Below are positions 2,999 through 50,468 of a DNA stretch of 64,000 bases, piece after piece. Numbering within the stretch: the first letter of the stretch is position 1; every line of letters begins with the position of its first letter. This DNA comes from Naegleria gruberi. Its lineage: Eukaryota. A program made the translations under genes and the position numbers. The stretch lies in the NCBI GenBank assembly GCA_000004985.1, contig GG738848.1; one strand, given 5' to 3'. The notes under the pieces are model-generated. The model saw nothing but the letters and a program-made list of their open reading frames with translations, had not been told where the DNA came from and made no database searches.

Positions 2999-4240
2999 AT
3001 GAGCAAACGAAAAAGACAAGATTTTGAAAATCATCATCGCTTAATTAATTCGGAGGAAATATTCACTAACAATTTTAATAATAATATGGAAGAGAAAGCA
3101 AAAAAGAGTGTGAAATTCCAACAAGAAGAAATATTTTCAGATGATGTTTGTTTTGAAATAATCTCCATGATTGATGATTCATGGTTTATTTTAAATAATT
3201 GTTGTTTAATTTCAAAACAATTCTTTAATGTGATCAAGGAACGTTCAAAACTTGTTATTCAATTTAACAAAAAATTTACAGAGAAACGAGTTGAATTATG
3301 CATGAAAAGTCAATTCATGAATAGTATTGTTAATCTTAAAGTTTCTCGTTGGTTGCTTGACTCTGTAGACCAACTCAAATTCATAAGTGAAATGAAACAA
3401 TTAACATCACTCGATATATATAGCAATCGAATTGGTGTAGAAGGAGTTAAATATATAAGTGAAATGAAACAATTAACATCACTTAATATTTCTGAAATTG
3501 AAATTAGTGATGAAGGAGCCAAATATATAAGTGAAATGAAACAATTAACATCACTTTATATACATAATAACGAAATTGGTGATGAAGGATCCAAACACAT
3601 AAGTGAAATGAAACAATTAACATCACTTAATATTGGTTGTAATGAAATTAGTGATGAAGGAGCTAAACATATAAGTGAAATGAACCAATTGATATCGCTT
3701 AGTATTGGTTACAATCGAATTGGTGATGAAGGATTCAAATATATAAGTGAAATGAAACAATTAACATCACTCGATATTACTGACGATGAAATTGGTGATG
3801 AAGGAGCTAAATATATCAGTGAAATGAAACAATTAACATCACTAAATATTGGTTTTAATGAAATTGGTGATGAAGGAGCCAAATACATCAGCGAATTGAA
3901 ACAATTAACATCACTTGATATTTCTGAAACTGAAATTAGTGATGAAGGAGCCAAATATATAAGTGAAATGAAACAATTGATATGGCTTACTATTGGTTAT
4001 AATGAAATTAGTGACAAAGGAGCTAAATACATCAGCGAACTGAAACAATTAACATCACTCGATATTACTGACAATAAAATTGGTAATGAAGGAGCCAAAT
4101 ATATAAGTGAAATGAACCAATTGATATCGCTTAATATTGGTTACAATCGAATTGGTGATGAAGGAGCCAAATATATAAGTGAAATGAAACAATTGACATC
4201 ACTAAGACAAATCAGTTTAGGATTTTACTGTAATAATTGA
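2999..4240 (+). CDS. F-box-like / leucine-rich-repeat protein (RNI-type 24-residue LRRs, ~12 units)
   Basis: 413-aa ORF. The N-terminal segment CFEIISMIDDSWFILNNCCLISKQFF is F-box-like. Tandem 24-aa units follow, with consensus ISEMKQLTSLdIsdNeIGDEGAKY. The paralog at 11446 is about 93% identical over the N-terminal 120 aa. Confidence 0.7.
   Translation: MSKRKRQDFENHHRLINSEEIFTNNFNNNMEEKAKKSVKFQQEEIFSDDVCFEIISMIDDSWFILNNCCLISKQFFNVIKERSKLVIQFNKKFTEKRVELCMKSQFMNSIVNLKVSRWLLDSVDQLKFISEMKQLTSLDIYSNRIGVEGVKYISEMKQLTSLNISEIEISDEGAKYISEMKQLTSLYIHNNEIGDEGSKHISEMKQLTSLNIGCNEISDEGAKHISEMNQLISLSIGYNRIGDEGFKYISEMKQLTSLDITDDEIGDEGAKYISEMKQLTSLNIGFNEIGDEGAKYISELKQLTSLDISETEISDEGAKYISEMKQLIWLTIGYNEISDKGAKYISELKQLTSLDITDNKIGNEGAKYISEMNQLISLNIGYNRIGDEGAKYISEMKQLTSLRQISLGFYCNN
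3376..4210 (+). repeat. In-frame 72-bp tandem repeat array (LRR-coding), about 12 units
   Basis: Direct 72-nt periodicity (ataagtgaaatgaaacaattaacatcact...). The open antisense frames across it are periodicity artefacts. Confidence 0.85.
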
Positions 4241-4378: not shown

Positions 4379-6280
4379 TTAAACTTTATAGAGAACTTCC
4401 TTAATGTCAACATGTTGATGTTGTTTACAATTATCGTATAGTGTTTTGAAAATCTTGTGTTTCTCAATTGCAATATCGAAATTCTTCTTTTGAGCTCGAC
4501 TGATTGCTTCCTTCAGTCCAGTATCAATCATGGTTGCAAATTTCTTCCTGGCCATATCCCATCCAATACTTGTGGCCATAATTCCACTCAGATTAATCAT
4601 TCTAAAATCAATATATCTCGTACTATTATTATCAATCTTTTGTAATAACCTAGCTCCAATCATTGGCAATCTTGTTCTAGAATCTCCACTATCGTATGAT
4701 TTCATCAATAGGAGACATTCTGTTATTTCACCACCAACGAATGATGCCTGACTTGAGAGTACCATGTCGAGGGCTCGTTTAGGGAATAAAGAAATCTCAA
4801 AATCTGATGAAAGAGTGGCAATTGAATATTTCTGTTGTGAGCTAGTCATGTTAATGGGCTCACTCTGGTTGAAGGTCACATTCTTCAACACTGACGATAA
4901 GTGATCATCAGTGTGTAGTGCCTTGACACATTCCTCCAGAGAATTCTCCAATTTACCAACCATTTTAAAAGTCTTTGATTCCAAATGTCCAACTGTATAA
5001 TCTGCCTTTGTGGACCATTGCATTAATTTTCCTCGATTCTTAATAGTTGGATACCAATCTGGAGAAAATTCCTTAGTGAGATAATTAATGGCCTTCCAAT
5101 CTGAATCAATTACAAATTTTACACTCAAATCCTCGGCTGAGAATCGATGGTCCTTCTCTGCATGCTTGAATAAATCTCTCTTCTTTAACAGAATGTGAAG
5201 GGCAGAGGAGGGCAATTTCTTTGGTTCCAGATTCGTCTTGATCCACTTGTTAATGAATTTTTCTTCATCCACCTGGAAAATATTAAACCAATCCTCCAAA
5301 TCATGCAAAAACATTTGAATAATGATTTGAATCTCATCCAACATTCCAATACCAATCAATTTATCATTTGGATCAGTATGGAGTGGAATTTCAATGTTTT
5401 TCGAATAGCATTCGTGTTGTTTCTTTAAAAAACTTTCCAATCTTTCATGTGAAAACAATTTTGCAGTTCTATTCTTTAAATGCATGATTAAACTTGTCAG
5501 GAAATGGAAAGGATTGCCTTCTCCTCCAGTATTTATACTAATTTCTATATTACTTGTAGGAATTTCCAATTCTAACAATAAATCTCTGCAAAATTCATCA
5601 ATCATTTCCATTACCACTTGTCGTGATGTGACAGTTGACTTGATTTTCAATGAACTTGCATCCATAAACTTGATAAGAAACAACACCTTAGCTCTAGCTT
5701 CTAGTTCATACTCAAAACTTTGCAAATATTTGAAAAATTGTTCTCGCATTTCTTCTAACGGAGGTAAATGTTTGAATTCTCCATAAGATTTTGAAGATTT
5801 TGAAGATTTTGTTGATTTTGTTGATTTTGCTGTGGAACTTCCATGGGAATGTGCTGAATTAGTTGATAAATTATCATCGGGAAGGTATTGGTCGTGATGG
5901 TTGTGATGGTGTCCATCAGAAAGTGCACTGGTTGACAATGGACTCGAGCTGATGGGATGATGGTTGGCAGTTCTGTCAAAATCATCGACTCCTTCAATAT
6001 TTATCTTGATTTGCTCTTCACTACTAGTAGAAAATGTAAAATCTGCATGTAAACTATAGGATTTAAAGTGTGAGCCTTGTCCATTCGAATAGGAGCCATC
6101 AAATAAACTAGACGAAACAGGAGAAGTTGACAAGAATGAAGTAGACGAAACCGGAGAACTTCCACCTGCAAAATGTGATGGAGAAAGACCCCTCGGTGAA
6201 TGTTGTGAACCATTCAAAGATGACAATCCTTTGTGTGAATCCACAACCGCTAGAAAATTGACAGGTAATTGTACTGACAT
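4379..6280 (-). CDS. Ser-rich hypothetical protein, C-terminal ~220 aa possibly a START/Bet v1-like lipid-binding fold
   Basis: 633-aa ORF on the minus strand. Low-complexity Ser/His N-terminal half (KSTKSTKSSKSS is encoded by a 9-bp repeat at about 5790-5830). The C-terminal region shows the W..G...PKRA(L)D...SSQASF..G...C pattern. The START call is tentative. Confidence 0.5.
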   Translation of the reverse strand: MSVQLPVNFLAVVDSHKGLSSLNGSQHSPRGLSPSHFAGGSSPVSSTSFLSTSPVSSSLFDGSYSNGQGSHFKSYSLHADFTFSTSSEEQIKINIEGVDDFDRTANHHPISSSPLSTSALSDGHHHNHHDQYLPDDNLSTNSAHSHGSSTAKSTKSTKSSKSSKSYGEFKHLPPLEEMREQFFKYLQSFEYELEARAKVLFLIKFMDASSLKIKSTVTSRQVVMEMIDEFCRDLLLELEIPTSNIEISINTGGEGNPFHFLTSLIMHLKNRTAKLFSHERLESFLKKQHECYSKNIEIPLHTDPNDKLIGIGMLDEIQIIIQMFLHDLEDWFNIFQVDEEKFINKWIKTNLEPKKLPSSALHILLKKRDLFKHAEKDHRFSAEDLSVKFVIDSDWKAINYLTKEFSPDWYPTIKNRGKLMQWSTKADYTVGHLESKTFKMVGKLENSLEECVKALHTDDHLSSVLKNVTFNQSEPINMTSSQQKYSIATLSSDFEISLFPKRALDMVLSSQASFVGGEITECLLLMKSYDSGDSRTRLPMIGARLLQKIDNNSTRYIDFRMINLSGIMATSIGWDMARKKFATMIDTGLKEAISRAQKKNFDIAIEKHKIFKTLYDNCKQHQHVDIKEVLYKV

Positions 6281-6803: not shown

Positions 6804-8422
6804 ATGGGCAATAAACTCATCATATCCCAGTCGGGTTCGTTCTCTCTGGATTCATCTACTTCATCTCTGCAAGCTTTCTATCAACAACCACTTGGCCGAA
6901 ACTTGAGACGAAACTCGACCGAAATACAAGCATCTCCTTCATCTCCAACAAAAAGAACGTCATCAAAGGGACCACTCAGTGCTGGATCAACATCCCTGAA
7001 TGATGTAGTATTCGAAAGATCTTCCTCACCAACTACAAACCCTCAGGATTATAACATTTTATTAGACGAAAGTTCAGAACCTGTAAAGAAGAGAATGAAC
7101 GTCATCATGTTAGGAACAGGAGGAAGTGCCAAAACCACAGTTTTAAAACAATTCAAATGTAAGTATTATTCCTTTTCTTTACAAGGTAATAATTTAAATT
7201 ATTTTACAAAATATTTAACATGTTTAATATAATTATAATATATTTAAAAAAATATTTACAAACAAAAAATCAATATCATTGAAAATAGTATTGGGAGGTA
7301 AAAGAGAAGATCTTACACAATCACTCTGGCAAGAAGGAATTGTCGTTCCATGTTTCGATTTGTTGATTGCCATTTTCAATCGAAAGAATTTCTATTATCC
7401 AAATGCAGAATATCATCACGAAGAATCTGATGAAGTTGAACAGCAAGTATTCGATCTGTTCGATCAAAAGAAGATTCTCAACATTATTCATCCGAATAAT
7501 CAGAAATTGATTGAGGAAATTGCTGAAATGTGGAACAATGAACCAATTTTGAGAAAGGTCTGTACGGAAATGCTTTTGGAAAATCAAGTGGAATCGGTTC
7601 CGGTTGAGGATGTGAATTATTATTTTTCCAGAGCTGTTGCAGTTCATCGGGGAGATAAACCATCGGATAAGGATTTGTTAATTTCACAAAGAAAGACAAC
7701 TGGTGTTACACATGTTGAATTTGCATTTAATAATGGTTCTACTTTGGTTAATATTTGGGATTGTGGTAAGTGAAATCATATTTTTGATTGTAAAATGTGA
7801 AATTTTGTGTAAATTTATGAATAATAATATAGGTGGTCAGAAAAATGAAAGAAAGAAGTGGAAATACATGTTTACCGAATCTCAAAAGTTAACAGGAAAG
7901 ATCTTTGTCATTTATTTCGTAGCTCTTTCAGAATATAATCAATTGTGCTACGAAGACGAAACCACCAACCGAACTCACGAATCTTTGAAAATTTTCGAGA
8001 GTGTTGCCAATAATCCAGAGTATGAGAATTATCCTCTCTTCCTCATCTTTACAAAGAAGGACATTTTCAAACAAAAATTGAGATATACCAGTTTATCTGT
8101 CTGTTTTGAAGATTGTCCAGAAGATTTGAAAGCTAACGAAGACACTACCAAGATAAAGAGAGATATCATTAACAATTGGACTGGATTTTTAGAGGATAGA
8201 CAATGTGTCTCTGATGAAATTTATGAAAAATCATTTGATTTTGTCAAGAGAAAATTTATGGAGCGAATTTCCAATGCCGATCGCAGAAAACAAACTGAAA
8301 AGAATATCAAGGTTGTGAATGCAATGGATGCTGATGATGTGAGAAGTAATCTTGTTGAAGAATTATTGGAACAAACAATGGTGGAAGAAATATATAAGGA
8401 TGATTTGGTTCATTATCTTTAA
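6804..8422 (+). CDS. Heterotrimeric G-protein alpha subunit, 3 exons (6804..7158, 7289..7765, 7833..8422)
   Basis: Exon 1 ends ...GTGGSAKTTVLKQFK, a P-loop-like segment, followed by a GTAAGT donor at 7159. Exon 2 carries RKTTGVTHVEFAFNNGSTLVNIWDCG(G), matching the switch I/II signature R.KTTGI...DVGGQ. Exon 3 starts GQKNERKKW and continues with ...ALSEYNQ..EDETTNR.HESL..F... and FTKKD (NKxD) and VVNAMDADD (TCAxDT). Splice sites GTAAGT/AG join the ORF frames cleanly. MG at the N-terminus. Confidence 0.8.
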
Positions 8423-8426
8423 AATT

Positions 8427-8448
8427 CTCGTCATTCAATAAAAGTTAA
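8427..8448. repeat. Target-site duplication, left copy (ctcgtcattcaataaaagttaa)
   Basis: Exact 22-bp direct repeat of 9620..9641 flanking the retroelement fragment. Contains the AATAAA of the Galpha 3' UTR. Confidence 0.7.
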
Positions 8449-9619
8449 ATTGTAATATTTATTAACGTCTCTTGTATCGTAAAGACCTGAGAGACGAGGT
8501 CTACAACCAGTAAGTTTCGGTTCAGCGTTTAAGTGTTATGGGTTGACGCTAAGTGGTTGGTTAGACTGAGCCTGCCTGTGGTAGGCAGAGAGGTATTTCC
8601 TGTTAATAGTGAAGCTTGCATTGGGACGGTTGTACCACACTGAGTTCTTGTAGCAATTTTCCAAATAAATAGCTAGTGCTTTGTAGACTTCTAGGGCCAC
8701 ATTCTTAGGTATTCTTTTGCGCTTAGACCAGTTAAGCCAGTCATTACGGGAGCAACGACCATCAAATTCTATCCTAAGTTGAGAGGATTCTGAGATATCA
8801 GGAGGGAAACGAATCTTGTTAAGGCTAAATTTCTGGGAGATAGCGTCCCATGTGGCATACAGTTCATCCTTTTCAGGATTGCATTTGGGACAAGTTTGGA
8901 ATACGTGGGTCCAATCTTCCTTGACATTACATTTGTCACAAATACTGTCGTTACCTAGTAAAATTGAGTGGTGGAGATTAAAGTAGAGGAGTCTTTGCTG
9001 ATAATAAGACAAGAGAGAGTTTCTCCAGAAGGAGAGAGTGCTATTATGCCAATTATAGTCATTGTCTAATTGGCCCAACTTATTAATAATTTTCTTGGAT
9101 CGCTGAGTTTCAATGATAGCATTTCTAAGGTTGGAGACAGGCTTGTGATTGGTACGGTTACACAAGACCCATCCATTATCTGTGGATTTGAAGTAATATT
9201 TCAGATCTTTCATTGTAGCGGCAGCATTTTTCCACAGTGAATCTGTAGTTTCACCCTTGAGCGCCTTATTTATCATGGCTCTTGCGATTTTGGGTGATAG
9301 GAGAGGTAGAATTGACAAACCTACAGACAGATGCCATCCTTTCCACGTGACTTATATCAACTGGAGATGAAAGTCCAAGTCCACCCTGGGATTTATCACC
9401 ATATATAACGGCTTTAGAGAGCCTGTTGTCACATCCAATTCTTTTCTTAATAATTCCACTAATTTTGACTTCCAATTTTTCCAATAGTGAAAGTGGAATA
9501 GCATCTACGCTTGAGAGGTATCTAGGTACAGAAAGCACCTTAGATAATATTACGTTCCTCATTGGACCGAAACAACTTTTAAGAGAACCTTATCATCGGA
9601 GGGAGACCAAGACATGTTA
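8449..9619 (-). mobile_element. 5'-truncated, frameshifted non-LTR (LINE-like) retrotransposon remnant: 3' part of ORF2 (post-RT GGLGL region plus C-terminal CCHC zinc knuckle)
   Basis: The minus-strand ORFs 9266..9562 and 8536..9318 overlap in different frames (decay). Motifs: ...KRIGCDNRLSKAVIYGDKSQGGLGL... (conserved K..GGLG box after the RT core of non-LTR elements) and CDKCNVKEDWTHVFQTCPKC (C..C...ET..H.F..CP knuckle typical of the CR1/L1-like ORF2 C-terminus). Local GC is higher than surrounding DNA. Flanked by perfect 22-bp direct repeats. No poly(A) tail. Confidence 0.65.
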
Positions 9620-9641
9620 CTCGTCATTCAATAAAAGTTAA
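9620..9641. repeat. Target-site duplication, right copy
   Basis: Identical to 8427..8448. Confidence 0.7.
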
Positions 9642-10051
9642 TATTTCTCAGAGCTGCAAGACTTGTTGTGCTGTTTATTTAAAAATCTCAATTTTTCCCT
9701 AATGACGGCATTTACCCCTGAACGGCAAAAAACAACCAACCTGAGCAAAAAAAAAATGAATTTAGGTCCTACTTTGACACAAATCATCTACCACATTTCA
9801 TCAGAATCACACAGCTAAACAACAGGGTTGGTGTTTTTCATAAATTGTACCCTGTATTTAACTATTAAGTTTTATTAAATTCGGGAGTTGATTTTTCGAA
9901 AAAAGAATAGAGGGCGGCTACTTTTGAAAAACAACTACCTCATTCCGAAAAACAACAGACCACCAAAATTCAATTCCTAAATGGCTAACACACCATAGCA
10001 CACAAATTTGGTTTATTCAATTTTTAGAATTGTCACACTCATCACACCAAT

Positions 10052-11445: not shown

Positions 11446-12672
11446 ATGAGCAAACGAAATAGACAAGATTTTGAAAATTATCATCAATTTATTAATTCGG
11501 AGGAAATATTCACTAACAATTTTAATATTATGGAAGAGAAGGCAAAAAAGAGTGTGAAATTCCAACAAGAAATATTTTCAGATGATGTTTGTTTTGAAAT
11601 AATTTCCATGATTGATGATTCATGGTTTATTTTAAATAATTGTTGTTTAATTTCAAAACAATTCTTTAATGTGATCAAGGAACGTTCAAAACTTGTTATT
11701 CAATTTAACAAAAAATTTACAAAGAAACGAGTTCAATTATTCATGAAAAGTCAATTCATGAATAGTATTGTTAATCTTAAAGTTTCTCGCCGGTTACTTG
11801 ACTCTTTAGAACAACCCAAATTCATAAGTGAAATGAAACAATTAACATCACTTAATATTTCTGACAATCAAATTGGCTTAGAAGGAGCCAAATACATCAG
11901 TGAAATGACACAATTAACATCACTTGATATTAGTGTAAATCGAATTGGTGTTGAAGGAGCTAAATTCATAAGTGAAATGAAACAATTAACATCACTTGAT
12001 ATTAGTGTAAATCGAATTGGTGTTGAAGGAGTTAAATTCATAAGCGAAATGAAACAATTAACATCACTTGATATTTCTGACAATCAAATTGGCTTAGAAG
12101 GATCCAAATACATCAGTGAAATGACACAATTAACATCACTTGATATTAGTGTAAATCGAATTGGTGTTGAAGGAGCTAAATTCATAAGTGAAATGAAACA
12201 ATTAACATCACTTAATATTAGTGTAAATCGAATTGGTGTTGAAGGAGTTAAATTCATAAGTGAAATGAAACAATTAACATCACTTGATATTTCTGACAAT
12301 CAAATTGGCTTAGGAGCCAAATACATAAGTGAAATGACACAATTAACATCACTTGATATTTCTGTAAATCGAATTGGTGATGAAGGAGCTAAATTCATAA
12401 GTGAAATGAAACAATTAACATCACTTGATATTTGTGACAATCAAATTGGTGTTGAAGGAGCCAAATTCATAAGCGAAATGACACAATTAACATCACTTGT
12501 TATTACTAGCAATCGAATTGGTGTTGAAGGAGCTAAATTCATAAGTGAAATGAAACAATTAACATCACTTGATATTTCTGGCAATCGAATTGGTGATGAA
12601 GGAGTTAAATTCATAAGTGAAATGAAACAATTAACATCACTTAATATTAGTGTAAATCGAATTGGTGGATGA
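11446..12672 (+). CDS. F-box-like / LRR protein, paralog of 2999..4240
   Basis: 408-aa ORF with the same F-box-like N-terminus and 72-bp LRR units (ISEMKQLTSLDISVNRIGVEGAKF). The stop TGA arises within a repeat unit (attggtgGatgaagg versus the canonical attggtgatgaagg). Confidence 0.65.
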   Translation: MSKRNRQDFENYHQFINSEEIFTNNFNIMEEKAKKSVKFQQEIFSDDVCFEIISMIDDSWFILNNCCLISKQFFNVIKERSKLVIQFNKKFTKKRVQLFMKSQFMNSIVNLKVSRRLLDSLEQPKFISEMKQLTSLNISDNQIGLEGAKYISEMTQLTSLDISVNRIGVEGAKFISEMKQLTSLDISVNRIGVEGVKFISEMKQLTSLDISDNQIGLEGSKYISEMTQLTSLDISVNRIGVEGAKFISEMKQLTSLNISVNRIGVEGVKFISEMKQLTSLDISDNQIGLGAKYISEMTQLTSLDISVNRIGDEGAKFISEMKQLTSLDICDNQIGVEGAKFISEMTQLTSLVITSNRIGVEGAKFISEMKQLTSLDISGNRIGDEGVKFISEMKQLTSLNISVNRIGG

Positions 12673-13137
12673 AGGAGTTAAATTCATAAGTGAAATGAAA
12701 CAATTAACATCACTTAATATTTCTGACAATCAAATTGGCGTAGAAGGAGCCAAATACCTCAGTGAAATGACACAATTAACATCACTTGATATTTCTGACA
12801 ATCAAATTGGCTTAGAAGGAGCCAAATACATAAGTGAAATGAAACAATTAACATCACTTGATATTTCTGCAATCGAATTGGTGATGAAGGAGCTAAATTC
12901 ATAAGCGAAATGAAACAATTAACATCACTTAATATTAGTGTAAATCGAATTGGTGGAGAAGGAGCCAAATACATCAGTGAAATGAAACAATTAACATCAC
13001 TTAATATTATGACAATCGAAATTGGTGACAAGGAGCCAAATACATAAGTGAAATGAAACAATTAACATCACTTCATATTACTAGCAATCAAATTGGCGTA
13101 GAAGGAGCCAAATACATAAGTGAAATGAAACAATTAT
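12673..13137 (+). pseudogene. Out-of-frame degenerate LRR repeat units (~6.5 x 72 bp) trailing the F-box/LRR gene
   Basis: Repeat units remain recognisable but carry several 1-3 nt indels (12662-12672, ~12870, ~13010) that break the frame. Either a decayed part of the array or assembly errors in a repetitive stretch. Confidence 0.5.
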
Positions 13138-25329: not shown

Positions 25330-25402
25330 TGCTGACGGACGGGATCGAACCGGCGACCAATGGCTTATTAGACCAACGCTCTACCGACTGAGCTACGCCA
25401 GC
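25330..25402 (-). tRNA. tRNA-Ile (anticodon AAT)
   Basis: Reverse complement: GCTGGCGTAGCTCAGTCGGTAGAGCGTTGGTCTAATAAGCCATTGGTCGCCGGTTCGATCCCGTCCGTCAGCA. 7-bp acceptor stem, GTAGAGC D-arm, anticodon loop CTAATAA, GGTTCGATCC T-loop, one C-U mismatch in the T-stem. Confidence 0.8.
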
Positions 25403-25567
25403 TTACATTCATTACAAATAACCTATAGAATTATGTAATAAAACAAATAACAATTTGTGCGAGATCCAATTTATCCTAGCTGTTAGCAATTCATTATTAA
25501 AATTGTTTTAATACAGCAGATCTCGTCAATCATCACAAGTTGATAGTGTGGTTGTATTGTAATGTAA

Positions 25568-25648
25568 GTTGAGGTGGCCGAGTGGTTAAGGCGCCAGCCT
25601 GCTAAGTTGGTGGAGAAATCCGCGTGGGTTCGAATCCCATCCTCAACG
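25568..25648 (+). tRNA. tRNA-Ser (anticodon GCT), long variable arm
   Basis: GTTGAGGTGGCCGAGTGGTTAAGGCGCCAGCCTGCTAAGTTGGTGGAGAAATCCGCGTGGGTTCGAATCCCATCCTCAACG. Class II tRNA with 3-bp D-stem, anticodon loop CTGCTAA, 13-nt variable arm, GGTTCGAATCC T-loop. Confidence 0.85.
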
Positions 25649-48961: not shown

Positions 48962-50468
48962 TTAATATTTTTCATGTAATTCTTGGAAGTGTGTTTCGGT
49001 TTTCTTCCTATTCAAGAAAACTAGTAAAATACACACCACAATACACAATGCAATCAAAGATAGAATAAATAATACACCAACAGCAATAATTGGCTTCAAT
49101 GTAAATAAATAATCAACTGGAGCAGTACTGAATTGAAAGTTTCCACCTTTTGAGAATACTACATAGTATTGAGTTGCTTCTCCTGAAAAGAGATAGAGAT
49201 TAGTTGAATTTACATGATAGTCATAATTGAAAAATTGATTTCTTTCAATATTCCAAGTGATTGGTTTCTTTCCAATATAAACATCTTGAATTGTTGCTGT
49301 ATTTTCAATTCTGATTTCAAAATATGTTTGAGGTTGAGTGGTGAAAGTTGCTGTGAATGGTGCGGAATTATCACTTTGAATTGAGTATGTTTGTCCAATT
49401 TCAAGTTTAGTATAATTAAAACTAATCTTTTTAGCATAAAACAAATTATATACAGCACTGGGTGGAGAAATTGTGAATGAATAATCTGGATTTCTATTGG
49501 AGATGACTTGTTGTGTAAGATTTGATTGAACAATGGCTACCATTTCTTGATTTGAATTTGAGAATTGCCACACTGATTGAACTGGATCATTAGATTTCAA
49601 CTCTTGAGCTATCAATGAAATGCAACCATAATTTTGATAGAAATGATCTTCTTTCACACTTTCAATTGAATTCCATTCATTTACCAAACAATTCCCAATA
49701 TAAAATAAAACATTTCGTTGCTGAATAGGATTCAGTTTCAACACCAAATTAGGTTGTCCATAAACGNNNNNNNNNNNNNNNNNNNNNNNNNNNNNNNNNN
49801 NNNNNNNNNNNNNNNNCTGATTTCATTCTGGGAATGTTAAATTTGCAAAATCCACATTAATTTCCATAACTTTTCCCCATTCAACTGGTTTTGTTTCTCC
49901 ATATGGACAAGCAAGTTTAGATTTTCCAGAAAATCCATAATTGATAACACCACCTTCTTTTGATTCACCAGTGAATGTGAGAGTTGGTCTTTCAGCAGCA
50001 GTGAAATCACATGTTAAAGAAATAGACAATGCTCTTGTAACTCCATCAGTAGCAGGAATACCAGCATGGAAGACCTTTACACCAGCACTTTCATCTGCAG
50101 GATTGAGCAATGAAAGTTTAGGAGTACCTTTCTTACCGATAGGATAGCAGAGATTGTATTGTTTAGCATATAGATATCCTTGAGCGTCAACAGTACAAAC
50201 AGCATTGCTTGGATTGGTAACTCCTCCACAAATATTGCTAAAATTCCAACTAATTAGTTTCCGATAATAATAAACAAAATACATACAAATAAAAGTTGAA
50301 ATTAGCATCGGTTGCTGCAACTTTATATCCTGAACCAGGAATATCAATATTAGAAAGGTCGATAATTCCTCTATAAGCAATTGGTAATGAACAAGTCGGT
50401 GCGGAGAATACAACATGCACACAACAAGCAAGCAGCAATGTGAGCAACACAAAGGTCAATCGTAACAT
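48962..50468 (-). CDS. MRH-like type I membrane glycoprotein, paralog A (exon 1 50287..50468; exon 2 50237 down to 48962, interrupted by the N-run 49757..49816 and a 1-nt indel next to it)
   Basis: Signal peptide MLRLTFVLLTLLLACCVHVVFSA and GTATGT/TTTTAG intron as in paralog B. Cys-rich N-terminal domain ending ...GKSKLACPY (MRH-like). C-terminal TM plus cytoplasmic tail. The stretches 49210-49533 and 51077-51400 are near-identical. Confidence 0.5.
49757..49816. other. Scaffold gap (60 N)
   Basis: Run of n. Homology with paralog B shows the flanks are essentially contiguous (B has ...gaaatcag|tttatgg...). Confidence 0.95.

What the first reader, a model, noticed from the sequence alone, without database searches (positions are those of the whole stretch)
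8427..9641. Dead-on-arrival LINE insertion with a perfect 22-bp target-site duplication inside the Galpha 3' UTR
The exact 22-mer ctcgtcattcaataaaagttaa occurs at 8427-8448 (5 nt after the Galpha stop codon) and again at 9620-9641. It brackets 1.17 kb whose minus strand encodes the post-RT GGLGL box and the CCHC knuckle (CDKCNVKEDWTHVFQTCPKC) of a non-LTR retrotransposon ORF2. The two ORF pieces are frameshifted relative to each other and the element lacks its RT core and 5' region. This is a classic 5'-truncated target-primed reverse transcription product. The duplicated target includes the AATAAA signal of the Galpha gene, so the element landed at that gene's polyadenylation site. The transcript probably now terminates within or reads into the element. 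The element is GC-richer than the host DNA and is likely a member of an uncharacterised LINE family of this organism.
Basis: partly seen in the sequence, partly recalled or inferred. Interest (0 to 1): 0.6.

Follow-up and report, generated by a model that had tools for sequence, protein, structure and literature searches.

The report
Truncated LINE insertion behind Naegleria Galpha gene
A 1.17-kb dead fragment of a jumping gene (a LINE retrotransposon found in Naegleria and its relatives) sits just after a G-protein alpha gene of Naegleria gruberi, flanked by a perfect 22-bp duplication of its landing site; it is real, cleanly explained and ordinary.

Summary
CTCGTCATTCAATAAAAGTTAA occurs exactly twice in the window, at 8427-8448 and 9620-9641, with none expected by chance. 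It brackets 1171 bp.

On the minus strand, the insert encodes the last third of a LINE ORF2 (RT thumb with the GGLGL box, then a CX2CX7HX4C knuckle and a C-terminal domain). An 87-nt 3'UTR follows.

The organism is Naegleria gruberi. Full-length relatives in N. fowleri (4760 bp) and Willaertia magna (4807 bp) carry ORF1 plus a roughly 1150-aa ORF2. That ORF2 has an APE endonuclease, an RT domain and the same C-terminal domain. Both elements are flanked by 19-20-bp target-site duplications and have no poly(A) tail.

The window copy begins just after the RT palm domain, at about residue 773 of 1158. It has two frameshifts and an intact 3' end. It is therefore a 5'-truncated product of target-primed reverse transcription, dead on arrival.

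The first nick fell 6 nt after the AATAAA that lies 15 nt downstream of the Galpha stop codon. That is inside the predicted poly(A) site, and the duplication preserved the signal. The effect on the transcript was not tested.

This is a new member of a known kind, and interest is low.

The parts
8427..8448 (.). Left copy of the 22-bp target-site duplication (TSD). It abuts the 3' end of the minus-strand element and contains the Galpha-proximal AATAAA at 8437-8442.
   Evidence: Exact repeat, 2 occurrences against 0 expected. It is the only direct repeat in the region. The hexamer was verified.
9620..9641 (.). Right copy of the 22-bp TSD. It abuts the truncated 5' end of the element and contains a second AATAAA at 9630-9635, followed by the original downstream flank.
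   Evidence: The empty site was reconstructed.
8449..9619 (-). 5'-truncated LINE remnant of 1171 bp, comprising the C-terminal third of ORF2 plus the 3'UTR.
   Evidence: tblastn of P0002, P0003 and P0020 hits only this locus in the window. The homologues carry RVT_1 and APE domains.
9577..9618 (-). First frame piece, NMSWSPSDDKVLLK. It is homologous to P0002 residues about 71-84, just after the YLG motif at the end of the RT palm. It is followed by frameshift 1, with a deletion of about 11 codons relative to P0002.
9287..9562 (-). Second frame piece: RT thumb region with the GGLGL box (9371-9385). It ends at frameshift 2 near 9288 (ITQN | IARAM).
   Evidence: The family profile matches the R2 thumb (E 5e-4).
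8536..9288 (-). Third frame piece: C-terminal domain with the CX2CX7HX4C knuckle (8890-8940) and the conserved NCYKN..W motif (8635-8658). The stop codon is at 8536-8538.
   Evidence: (nearly invariant C, C, H, C and CYKN..W columns).
8449..8535 (-). Element 3'UTR of 87 nt. A hairpin CGUCUCU...AGAGACG lies at 8466-8496 and the element's own AATAAA at 8458-8463 (read on the minus strand). The copy ends 15 nt after the start of the hexamer and has no poly(A) tail.
   Evidence: It aligns to the 3'UTR of L002 up to the last bases. The same hairpin is predicted in both copies, though its sequence is conserved and shows no covariation.
6804..8422 (+). Host G-protein alpha subunit gene. It has three exons (about 6804-7232, 7279-7773 and about 7830-8422; exon limits were read from ORFs, and splice sites were not mapped). 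The stop codon is at 8420-8422.
   Evidence: Pfam G-alpha covers profile positions 9-45, 68-191 and 191-326 across the three pieces.

Best explanation
This is a dead-on-arrival, 5'-truncated copy of an APE-type non-LTR retrotransposon (LINE). The family was found here only in heterolobosean amoebae (Naegleria, Willaertia) and in unattributed environmental contigs. The copy inserted in minus orientation into the 3' end of a Naegleria gruberi Galpha gene.

Mechanism (inferred from the anatomy and from how LINEs are known to work):
1. The element's endonuclease nicked the plus strand between 8448 and the base now at 9642 (5'-AATAAAAGTTAA|TATTTC-3').
2. The freed 3'-OH primed reverse transcription of the element's RNA from its very 3' end.
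3. Synthesis or template use stopped after 1171 nt, just downstream of the RT palm coding region.
4. The second strand was cut 22 bp away, and fill-in produced the 22-bp duplication.

The copy lacks ORF1, the endonuclease and the RT core, and it carries two frameshifts, so it cannot move or encode a working protein.

The duplication includes the AATAAA located 15 nt after the Galpha stop codon, so the gene keeps that signal. The predicted cleavage point (15-20 nt after the hexamer in this species) now falls in the first bases of the antisense LINE tail. A second, fully native copy of the signal lies 1.19 kb further on.
For: Shown:
- Exact 22-bp direct repeat flanking the insert, with none expected by chance.
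- The insert's minus strand is 59% identical in protein to P0002 and P0003. Its relatives P0006 and P0007 have RVT_1 upstream of the same C-terminal domain.
- The full-length ORF2 proteins P0020 (N. fowleri) and P0019 have Exo_endo_phos followed by RVT_1.
- The retained region matches the R2 thumb by profile. By fold, it matches only R2 and L1 ORF2p.
- The truncation point corresponds to about residue 773 of 1158.
- The 3'UTR aligns to its end with an independent copy, L002.
- Full-length relatives are bounded by 19-20-bp TSDs and have no poly(A) tail: L001 (4760 bp) and L006 (4807 bp).
- There are no LTRs or TIRs.
- Other, diverged copies lie on other N. gruberi scaffolds: P0003, P0005 and P0009.

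From the literature: N. gruberi uses AAUAAA 15-20 nt upstream of cleavage, has a median 3'UTR of 39 nt, and uses a U-rich downstream element (PMC11529991).

Inferred: the order of nicks, truncation during integration, and the consequence for Galpha mRNA.
Against: - No near-identical source element was found. The closest relatives are only about 59% identical in protein, or 69% in DNA for L002. The parent lineage within N. gruberi is therefore not identified.
- The whole genome could not be searched, so the uniqueness of the 22-mer and the copy number of this subfamily are unknown.
- No empty-site allele was available.
- The two frameshifts could be sequencing errors, mutations after insertion or errors of reverse transcription. 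This does not affect the main reading.
Confidence: 0.93

Rival explanations
1. The 8536-9318 ORF is a real host gene, a domesticated LINE-derived protein, as the public annotation implies. That annotation lists a 267-aa 'predicted protein' with an intron. On this reading it is not a dead fragment.
For: P0001 (N. gruberi predicted protein, 267 aa) is this locus. A 260-aa stretch without stop codons remains. The TSDs are perfect, so there has been little time for decay.
Against: The annotated 'intron' sits exactly on the frameshift at about 9288-9300. It removes residues that are conserved and contiguous in the relatives (VCRFVNSTSPITQN-IARAM). The reading frame continues upstream, beyond the annotated start codon, into thumb-domain sequence and on to the TSD, through a second frameshift. 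The piece starts in the middle of a domain. The exhaustive search found only 17 related proteins, all consistent with LINE ORF2 fragments.
Confidence: 0.03
2. A full-length element inserted here and was later shortened by a genomic deletion, so it was not dead on arrival.
For: Nothing specific. Deletions do occur, and one deletion of about 11 codons lies near the 5' end of the remnant.
Against: A later deletion that removed 3.6 kb of the 5' part would have had to stop exactly at the inner edge of an intact 22-bp TSD copy. The perfect repeat abuts the truncated end directly.
Confidence: 0.02
3. Endonuclease-independent capture of LINE cDNA at a double-strand break, or a chance or recombinational duplication unrelated to retrotransposition.
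For: None beyond the general existence of such events.
Against: Endonuclease-independent insertions typically lack TSDs and are often 3'-truncated (established knowledge of L1 biology). This copy has a 22-bp TSD of the same size class as two full-length relatives and an intact 3' end. In all three cases the TSD begins T-rich on the element's sense strand. That points to a shared nicking preference.
Confidence: 0.02

Closest known systems
APE-type non-LTR retrotransposons (LINEs) in general; 5'-truncated 'dead-on-arrival' copies as known from L1, CR1 and Drosophila elements
   Same: The relatives have a two-ORF layout (ORF1 is weakly conserved). ORF2 has the order APE endonuclease, RT, C-terminal CCHC domain. 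Copies are flanked by TSDs of about 20 bp. This copy has a 5' truncation with an intact 3' end.
   Different: There is no poly(A) or simple-repeat tail. Copies end 14-18 nt after the start of an AATAAA hexamer. The C-terminal domain has only 17 detectable relatives among 1.84 billion representative proteins.
L1 clade (human LINE-1 ORF2p; PDB 8uw3, 8c8j)
   Same: It has a CX2CX7HX4C knuckle near the C-terminus and an N-terminal APE endonuclease. It matches L1 ORF2p by sequence (E 7e-15 for the RT of P0007) and by fold (E 0.011).
   Different: There is no poly(A) tail. The TSDs start T-rich rather than A-rich on the sense strand, so the nicked strand is A-rich rather than TTTT|AA. The RT and thumb are closer to R2 than to L1 among solved structures. 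The endonuclease also gives weak matches to Exo_endo_phos_2 (PF14529). Nearest RTs outside the family often carry PF14529, which I associate from memory with Jockey/CR1/I-type elements. I do not file it under L1.
R2 (restriction-like-endonuclease LINEs; PDB 8gh6, 9nl2, 9dou)
   Same: These are the best solved-structure matches for the RT, the thumb (including the GGLG box) and the following region. Both have a CCHC knuckle after the thumb.
   Different: This family has an N-terminal APE endonuclease. The positions after the knuckle where a PD-(D/E)xK motif would sit are not conserved (alignment, by inspection). Insertion is not rDNA-specific. It is not a member of R2.
Tail-less 'stringent' LINEs such as CR1/L2, whose RT is thought to recognise a 3'UTR stem-loop (recalled from the literature, not tested)
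   Same: There is no poly(A) tail. A hairpin lies just upstream of the 3' end in the window copy and L002, and different hairpins are present in L004 and L003.
   Different: The hairpin is not supported by covariation and is not significant in L001. No 3' microsatellite is present. Clade membership was not tested.

Membership tests
Non-LTR retrotransposon (LINE), APE-type | Reverse transcriptase of the non-LTR type in the element's ORF2 | tested here: met
   The RT is absent from this truncated copy by definition. It is present directly upstream of the homologous C-terminal domain in the relatives P0006, P0007, P0019, P0020 and P0022 (RVT_1, E 1e-33 to 1e-39). The best PDB matches are R2 and L1 ORF2p.
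Non-LTR retrotransposon (LINE), APE-type | The retained segment is itself homologous to the post-palm (thumb) region of LINE RTs | tested here: met
   The family profile, which includes the window's own translation, matches the thumb of R2 proteins at E 5e-4 with the GGLG box aligned. An AF2 model of P0002 matches only R2 (E 2e-6) and L1 ORF2p in the PDB. The model is of moderate quality (pLDDT 65).
Non-LTR retrotransposon (LINE), APE-type | Apurinic/apyrimidinic-like endonuclease at the N-terminus of ORF2 | tested here: met
   P0020 matches Exo_endo_phos at residues 9-223 (E 7e-8, above the Pfam cut-off). P0019 and P0022 give weaker matches. This was tested in the relatives only.
Non-LTR retrotransposon (LINE), APE-type | Target-site duplication flanking the insertion, with no LTRs or TIRs | tested here: met
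   There is a 22-bp exact TSD here. The TSDs are 19-20 bp in L001 and 19 bp in L006. No terminal repeats were found.
Non-LTR retrotransposon (LINE), APE-type | Variable 5' truncation with a constant 3' end among copies | tested here: met
   The window copy starts at the equivalent of about residue 773 of 1158. L002 is truncated further in. The 3'UTRs of both align to the same end.
Non-LTR retrotransposon (LINE), APE-type | Dispersed multiple copies in the same genome | tested here: inconclusive
   Three other N. gruberi predicted proteins on other scaffolds belong to the family: P0003, P0005 and P0009. They are only 31-59% identical. The genome itself could not be searched, so the copy number of this subfamily is unknown.
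L1 clade | 3' poly(A) tail and an A-rich start of the TSD (TTTT|AA nick) | tested here: not met
   There is no A-run at the 3' junction in any of six copies. The TSDs begin T-rich on the sense strand: 21 of 30 bases are T in the three TSD-defined cases (P = 3e-5).
L1 clade | RT groups with L1 in a phylogeny of reference RTs | not testable with these tools
   No reference set of LINE clades (Repbase or RTclass1) is available. Among solved structures, R2 scores better than L1.
R2 / RLE-type LINEs | C-terminal PD-(D/E)xK restriction-like endonuclease and no APE domain | tested here: not met
   An APE domain is present. No conserved D/E-x-K appears after the knuckle in the 10-sequence alignment. 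The PPD is replaced by NTT, PNR or PPE in some members (by inspection).

The most novel reading that the evidence does not exclude
The family may have an unusual way of forming and placing its 3' end. Every copy examined ends 14-18 nt after the start of its own AATAAA, which is the hexamer-to-cleavage distance measured for N. gruberi mRNAs, yet no copy carries a poly(A) tail. Every copy is followed by a T-rich stretch of target DNA on the sense strand.

This suggests two things. First, the endonuclease may prefer to nick the A-rich strand, which is why it hit the Galpha AATAAAAG. Second, each new copy would be placed just upstream of a U-rich downstream element, which its terminal poly(A) signal needs in order to work.

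If so, host poly(A) signals read on the opposite strand would be natural targets. In addition, reverse transcription would have to start at the exact junction between the 3'UTR and the poly(A) tail, without base-pairing to the tail.

The basis is thin. Only three junctions are defined by TSDs, and three more were placed by eye.
Probability: 0.3. Interest if true: 0.4.

Novelty: new member of a known kind. Interest (0 to 1): 0.17.

Why it matters
Mostly for annotation. The public 'predicted protein' at this locus (267 aa) is a LINE remnant whose modelled intron hides a frameshift. It should be masked as a repeat.

Transposable elements are scarce in Naegleria: about 0.3% of the genome in one survey (bioRxiv 10.64898/2026.06.24.734286), with LINEs at 0.25% in N. 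lovaniensis (PMC6125883). A young, cleanly bounded insertion together with two full-length relatives therefore gives a usable reference for a heterolobosean LINE family. That reference includes its termini, TSD length and lack of a tail.

The insertion also creates a natural tandem poly(A)-site test case for a Galpha gene. Neither point is surprising to a specialist in mobile elements.

Tried and rejected
- Pfam on the two insert ORF pieces gave no hit. This region of LINE ORF2 is not covered by Pfam, so homology had to come from database proteins.
- The look-up of encoding contigs for the N. gruberi proteins P0001, P0002 and P0003 returned nothing. Other N. gruberi copies could therefore not be read as DNA.
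- The search for related loci on JGI metagenome contigs failed twice because the alignments lacked a conserved enough stretch. With a tighter alignment it gave 202 pattern matches, none confirmed.
- A 3'UTR motif scan of metagenome contigs (GATAYAAGAGACGTWAATAAA) returned four loci, L007-L010. All were chance matches with unrelated flanks.
- tRNA-gene targeting was considered because L003 lies next to a tRNA-Gln. It was rejected as a general feature: there is no tRNA near the window insertion or in L001 and L002.
- The shared motif TTTTWTKGAAT in the window, L002 and L001 targets looked like a specific target sequence. The motif is rare in the window: 3 sites, two of them the TSD copies, against 2.6 expected by chance. 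However, L003, L004 and L006 share only the T-run, so I keep only 'T-rich start'.
- No TSD could be found for L002 or L004.
- Literature searches found no description of this LINE family in Naegleria.
- Clade assignment (L1, Jockey/CR1/I or other) was not resolved.

Full report
**Observation**

The 22-mer CTCGTCATTCAATAAAAGTTAA occurs at 8427-8448 and 9620-9641. Even with three mismatches allowed, it occurs nowhere else on either strand of the 64-kb window. None is expected by chance. It is the only direct repeat of at least 12 nt in 8300-9800, the insert has no terminal inverted repeats, and the repeat cannot be extended by one base on either side.

The upstream ORF ending with TAA at 8420-8422 is the last exon of a G-protein alpha gene (Pfam G-alpha, E 2e-35). 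Two upstream pieces cover the rest of the profile.

The bracketed insert is 1171 bp and 40.2% GC, against 33.8% for the window and 33-36% for neighbouring exons. The only correction is that the coding remnant lies in three frame pieces rather than two.

**What the insert encodes**

Read on the minus strand, the insert translates in three pieces:
- 9577-9618: NMSWSPSDDKVLLK.
- 9287-9562: ...SKAVIYGDKSQGGLGLSSPVDISHVERMASVCRFVNSTSPITQN.
- 8536-9288: IARAMINKAL...CDKCNVKEDWTHVFQTCPKC...ENCYKNSVWYNRP...stop.

Pfam has no model for this region. A search of 5.8 billion proteins found three relatives:
- P0001, 99% identical, is 'predicted protein [Naegleria gruberi]'. It is this very locus, with a modelled intron placed exactly over the second frameshift.
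- P0002 is 451 aa and 59% identical.
- P0003 is from N. gruberi, on another scaffold, and 59% identical.

The organism is therefore Naegleria gruberi. The alignment shows that the three pieces are contiguous in the relatives. There is one frameshift near 9288. A second lies near 9570, with a deletion of about 11 codons.

**Family and architecture**

An exhaustive profile search of 1.84 billion representative proteins found only 17 relatives of this C-terminal region. The two longest, P0006 and P0007, have an RVT_1 domain (E about 1e-38) immediately upstream of it.

A search with P0007 recovered full-length ORF2 proteins of 1145-1158 aa. One is N. fowleri FDP41_006562 (P0020), and there is also a Willaertia magna protein. 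Pfam gives Exo_endo_phos at residues 9-223 and RVT_1 at 525-766 of P0020.

Among solved structures, the RT matches R2 proteins (E 2e-29) and human LINE-1 ORF2p (E 7e-15). A profile that includes the window's own translation matches the R2 thumb with the GGLG box aligned (E 5e-4). An AlphaFold model of P0002 is of moderate quality (pLDDT 65, and 60-94 over residues 125-410). It matches only R2 (E 2e-6, TM 0.46-0.50) and L1 ORF2p (E 0.011) in the PDB; every other hit has E above 0.5.

The knuckle is CX2CX7HX4C, and its four ligands are nearly invariant in the family.

The window copy begins at the equivalent of P0020 residue about 773, just after the YLG motif that closes the RT palm. It therefore keeps only about 385 codons of ORF2 and the 3'UTR. 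It lacks ORF1, the endonuclease and the RT core.

**Full-length relatives behave the same way**

- In N. fowleri (L001, VFQX01000052.1), a 4760-bp element has ORF1 (347 aa) and ORF2 (1158 aa). It is flanked by (A)TTTTTTGGAATTGGAAATT at 4763/4-4782 and 9542/3-9561.
- In Willaertia magna (L006), a 4807-bp element is flanked by the 19-mer TATTTTTTTTTCGCAATTT at 3790-3808 and 8616-8634.
- Their 5' termini are alike: GGGTCTTCGAAAAAATG and GGGATTTCAAAAAAATG.
- ORF1 is weakly conserved across family members.
- Neither element has LTRs, TIRs or a poly(A) tail.

A 22-bp duplication is therefore what this family makes.

**The 3' end is intact**

A further 5'-truncated copy, on a short contig assembled from a public sequencing run, is 69% identical in DNA (L002). 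It aligns with the window element through the whole 3'UTR, including a hairpin (CGUCUCU...AGAGACG) and the AATAAA, up to the last few bases. The hairpin sequence is conserved without compensatory changes, so it is not independently supported as a structure.

**Mechanism**

These features are the signature of target-primed reverse transcription that stopped early:
- a TSD of family-typical length;
- an intact 3' end;
- a 5' end that stops inside ORF2 and abuts an undamaged TSD copy;
- no terminal repeats.

The order of events is inferred. The plus strand was nicked at AATAAAAGTTAA|TATTTC. cDNA synthesis ran from 8449 towards 9619. The second nick was made 22 bp to the left. A later deletion is unlikely, because it would have had to end precisely at the TSD. 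The perfect 22/22 TSD and the absence of in-frame stop codons suggest a fairly recent event.

**Relation to the Galpha gene**

Direct RNA sequencing of N. gruberi has shown several rules (PMC11529991):
- AAUAAA is the main poly(A) signal.
- A U-rich downstream element helps.
- The median 3'UTR is 39 nt.

The AATAAA at 8437-8442 begins 15 nt after the Galpha stop codon. The predicted cleavage point is therefore about 8452-8462, giving a 3'UTR of 30-40 nt. The nick fell 6 nt after the hexamer, between the signal and the predicted cleavage site.

Because the hexamer is inside the TSD, the gene keeps it. Cleavage would now fall in the first 4-14 nt of the antisense LINE tail (AUUGUAAUAUUUAUUAACGUCUCUUG), which is itself U-rich. 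A second hexamer with the native downstream flank lies at 9630-9635. Which site is used was not testable here.

**Side observation on the family**

In all six copies whose 3' junction I could read, the element ends 14-18 nt after the start of its own AATAAA with no A-tail. The flank then begins T-rich on the sense strand. For the three junctions fixed objectively by TSDs, 21 of the first 30 bases are T, against a 33% background (P = 3e-5).

This suggests nicking of the A-rich strand, the opposite polarity to L1. It is also consistent with an element whose terminal poly(A) signal borrows a U-rich downstream element from the target. A more specific shared motif (TTTTWTKGAAT) was seen in three targets but not in the other three, so I do not claim it.

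**Comparison with known families**

The element works like, and is, an APE-type LINE. I could not assign a clade. It does not meet the L1 hallmarks of a poly(A) tail and A-rich TSD starts. It is not an R2, because it has an APE domain and no conserved PD-(D/E)xK after the knuckle (by inspection). Its nearest RTs outside the family often carry Exo_endo_phos_2, which I associate from memory with Jockey/CR1/I-type elements.

I found no description of this family in the searchable literature. Repbase and Dfam could not be queried.

**Verdict**

It is an ordinary kind of event: a new, apparently undescribed member of a known kind. Its main value is for annotation. Interest is low (0.17).

Noticed in passing
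window 8536-9337 (minus strand): The public N. gruberi 'predicted protein' P0001 (267 aa) is this LINE remnant. Its modelled intron removes exactly the frameshifted bases between ...SPITQ and KIARAM..., so the gene model is an annotation artefact.
   Followed up: yes
L001 4783-9541 (N. fowleri VFQX01000052.1) and L006 3809-8615 (Willaertia magna JBEGDK010000165.1): Two full-length, TSD-bounded elements of the same family (4760 and 4807 bp) share a 5' terminus, GGG[TA][CT]TTC[GA]AAAAAATG. The ORF1 start codon lies only about 14 nt from the element's first base, which leaves almost no 5'UTR or internal promoter space.
   Followed up: partly
window TSD; L001 9542-9561; L006 8616-8634; L002 about 1342; L003 about 4708; L004 about 4237: All six 3' junctions end 14-18 nt after the start of AATAAA without a poly(A) tail. 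Each is followed by a T-rich target on the sense strand, which suggests a nicking preference for the A-rich strand.
   Followed up: partly
model of P0002 (relative of window 8536-9562): The region after the RT palm matches R2 proteins better than human L1 ORF2p, both by profile and by fold, although the family uses an APE endonuclease. I could not determine whether the part after the CCHC knuckle is a degenerate restriction-like endonuclease fold, because no residue-level structural alignment was available.
   Followed up: partly
L003 5006-5078: A full-length family member from a contig assembled from a public sequencing run lies about 300 bp upstream of a tRNA-Gln gene. This was not seen at the other insertions, so it is probably coincidence.
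   Followed up: yes
L001 4763-4782 and 9542-9600: The N. fowleri element sits in an intergenic gap of about 75 bp between a synaptobrevin gene and a peptidase M16 gene that point away from each other. The insertion lies about 38 bp upstream of the peptidase start codon.
   Followed up: no
window 11446-13061: A long ORF is made of tandem repeats of about 24 aa (ISEMKQLTSLDISxNRIGxEGAKF). It looks like a leucine-rich-repeat gene. It was not analysed.
   Followed up: no
window 49767-49816: A run of 50 N marks an assembly gap.
   Followed up: no
window 25330-25648: A pair of tRNA genes pointing away from each other: tRNA-Ile(AAT) on the minus strand and tRNA-Ser(GCT) on the plus strand, 165 bp apart.
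   Followed up: no
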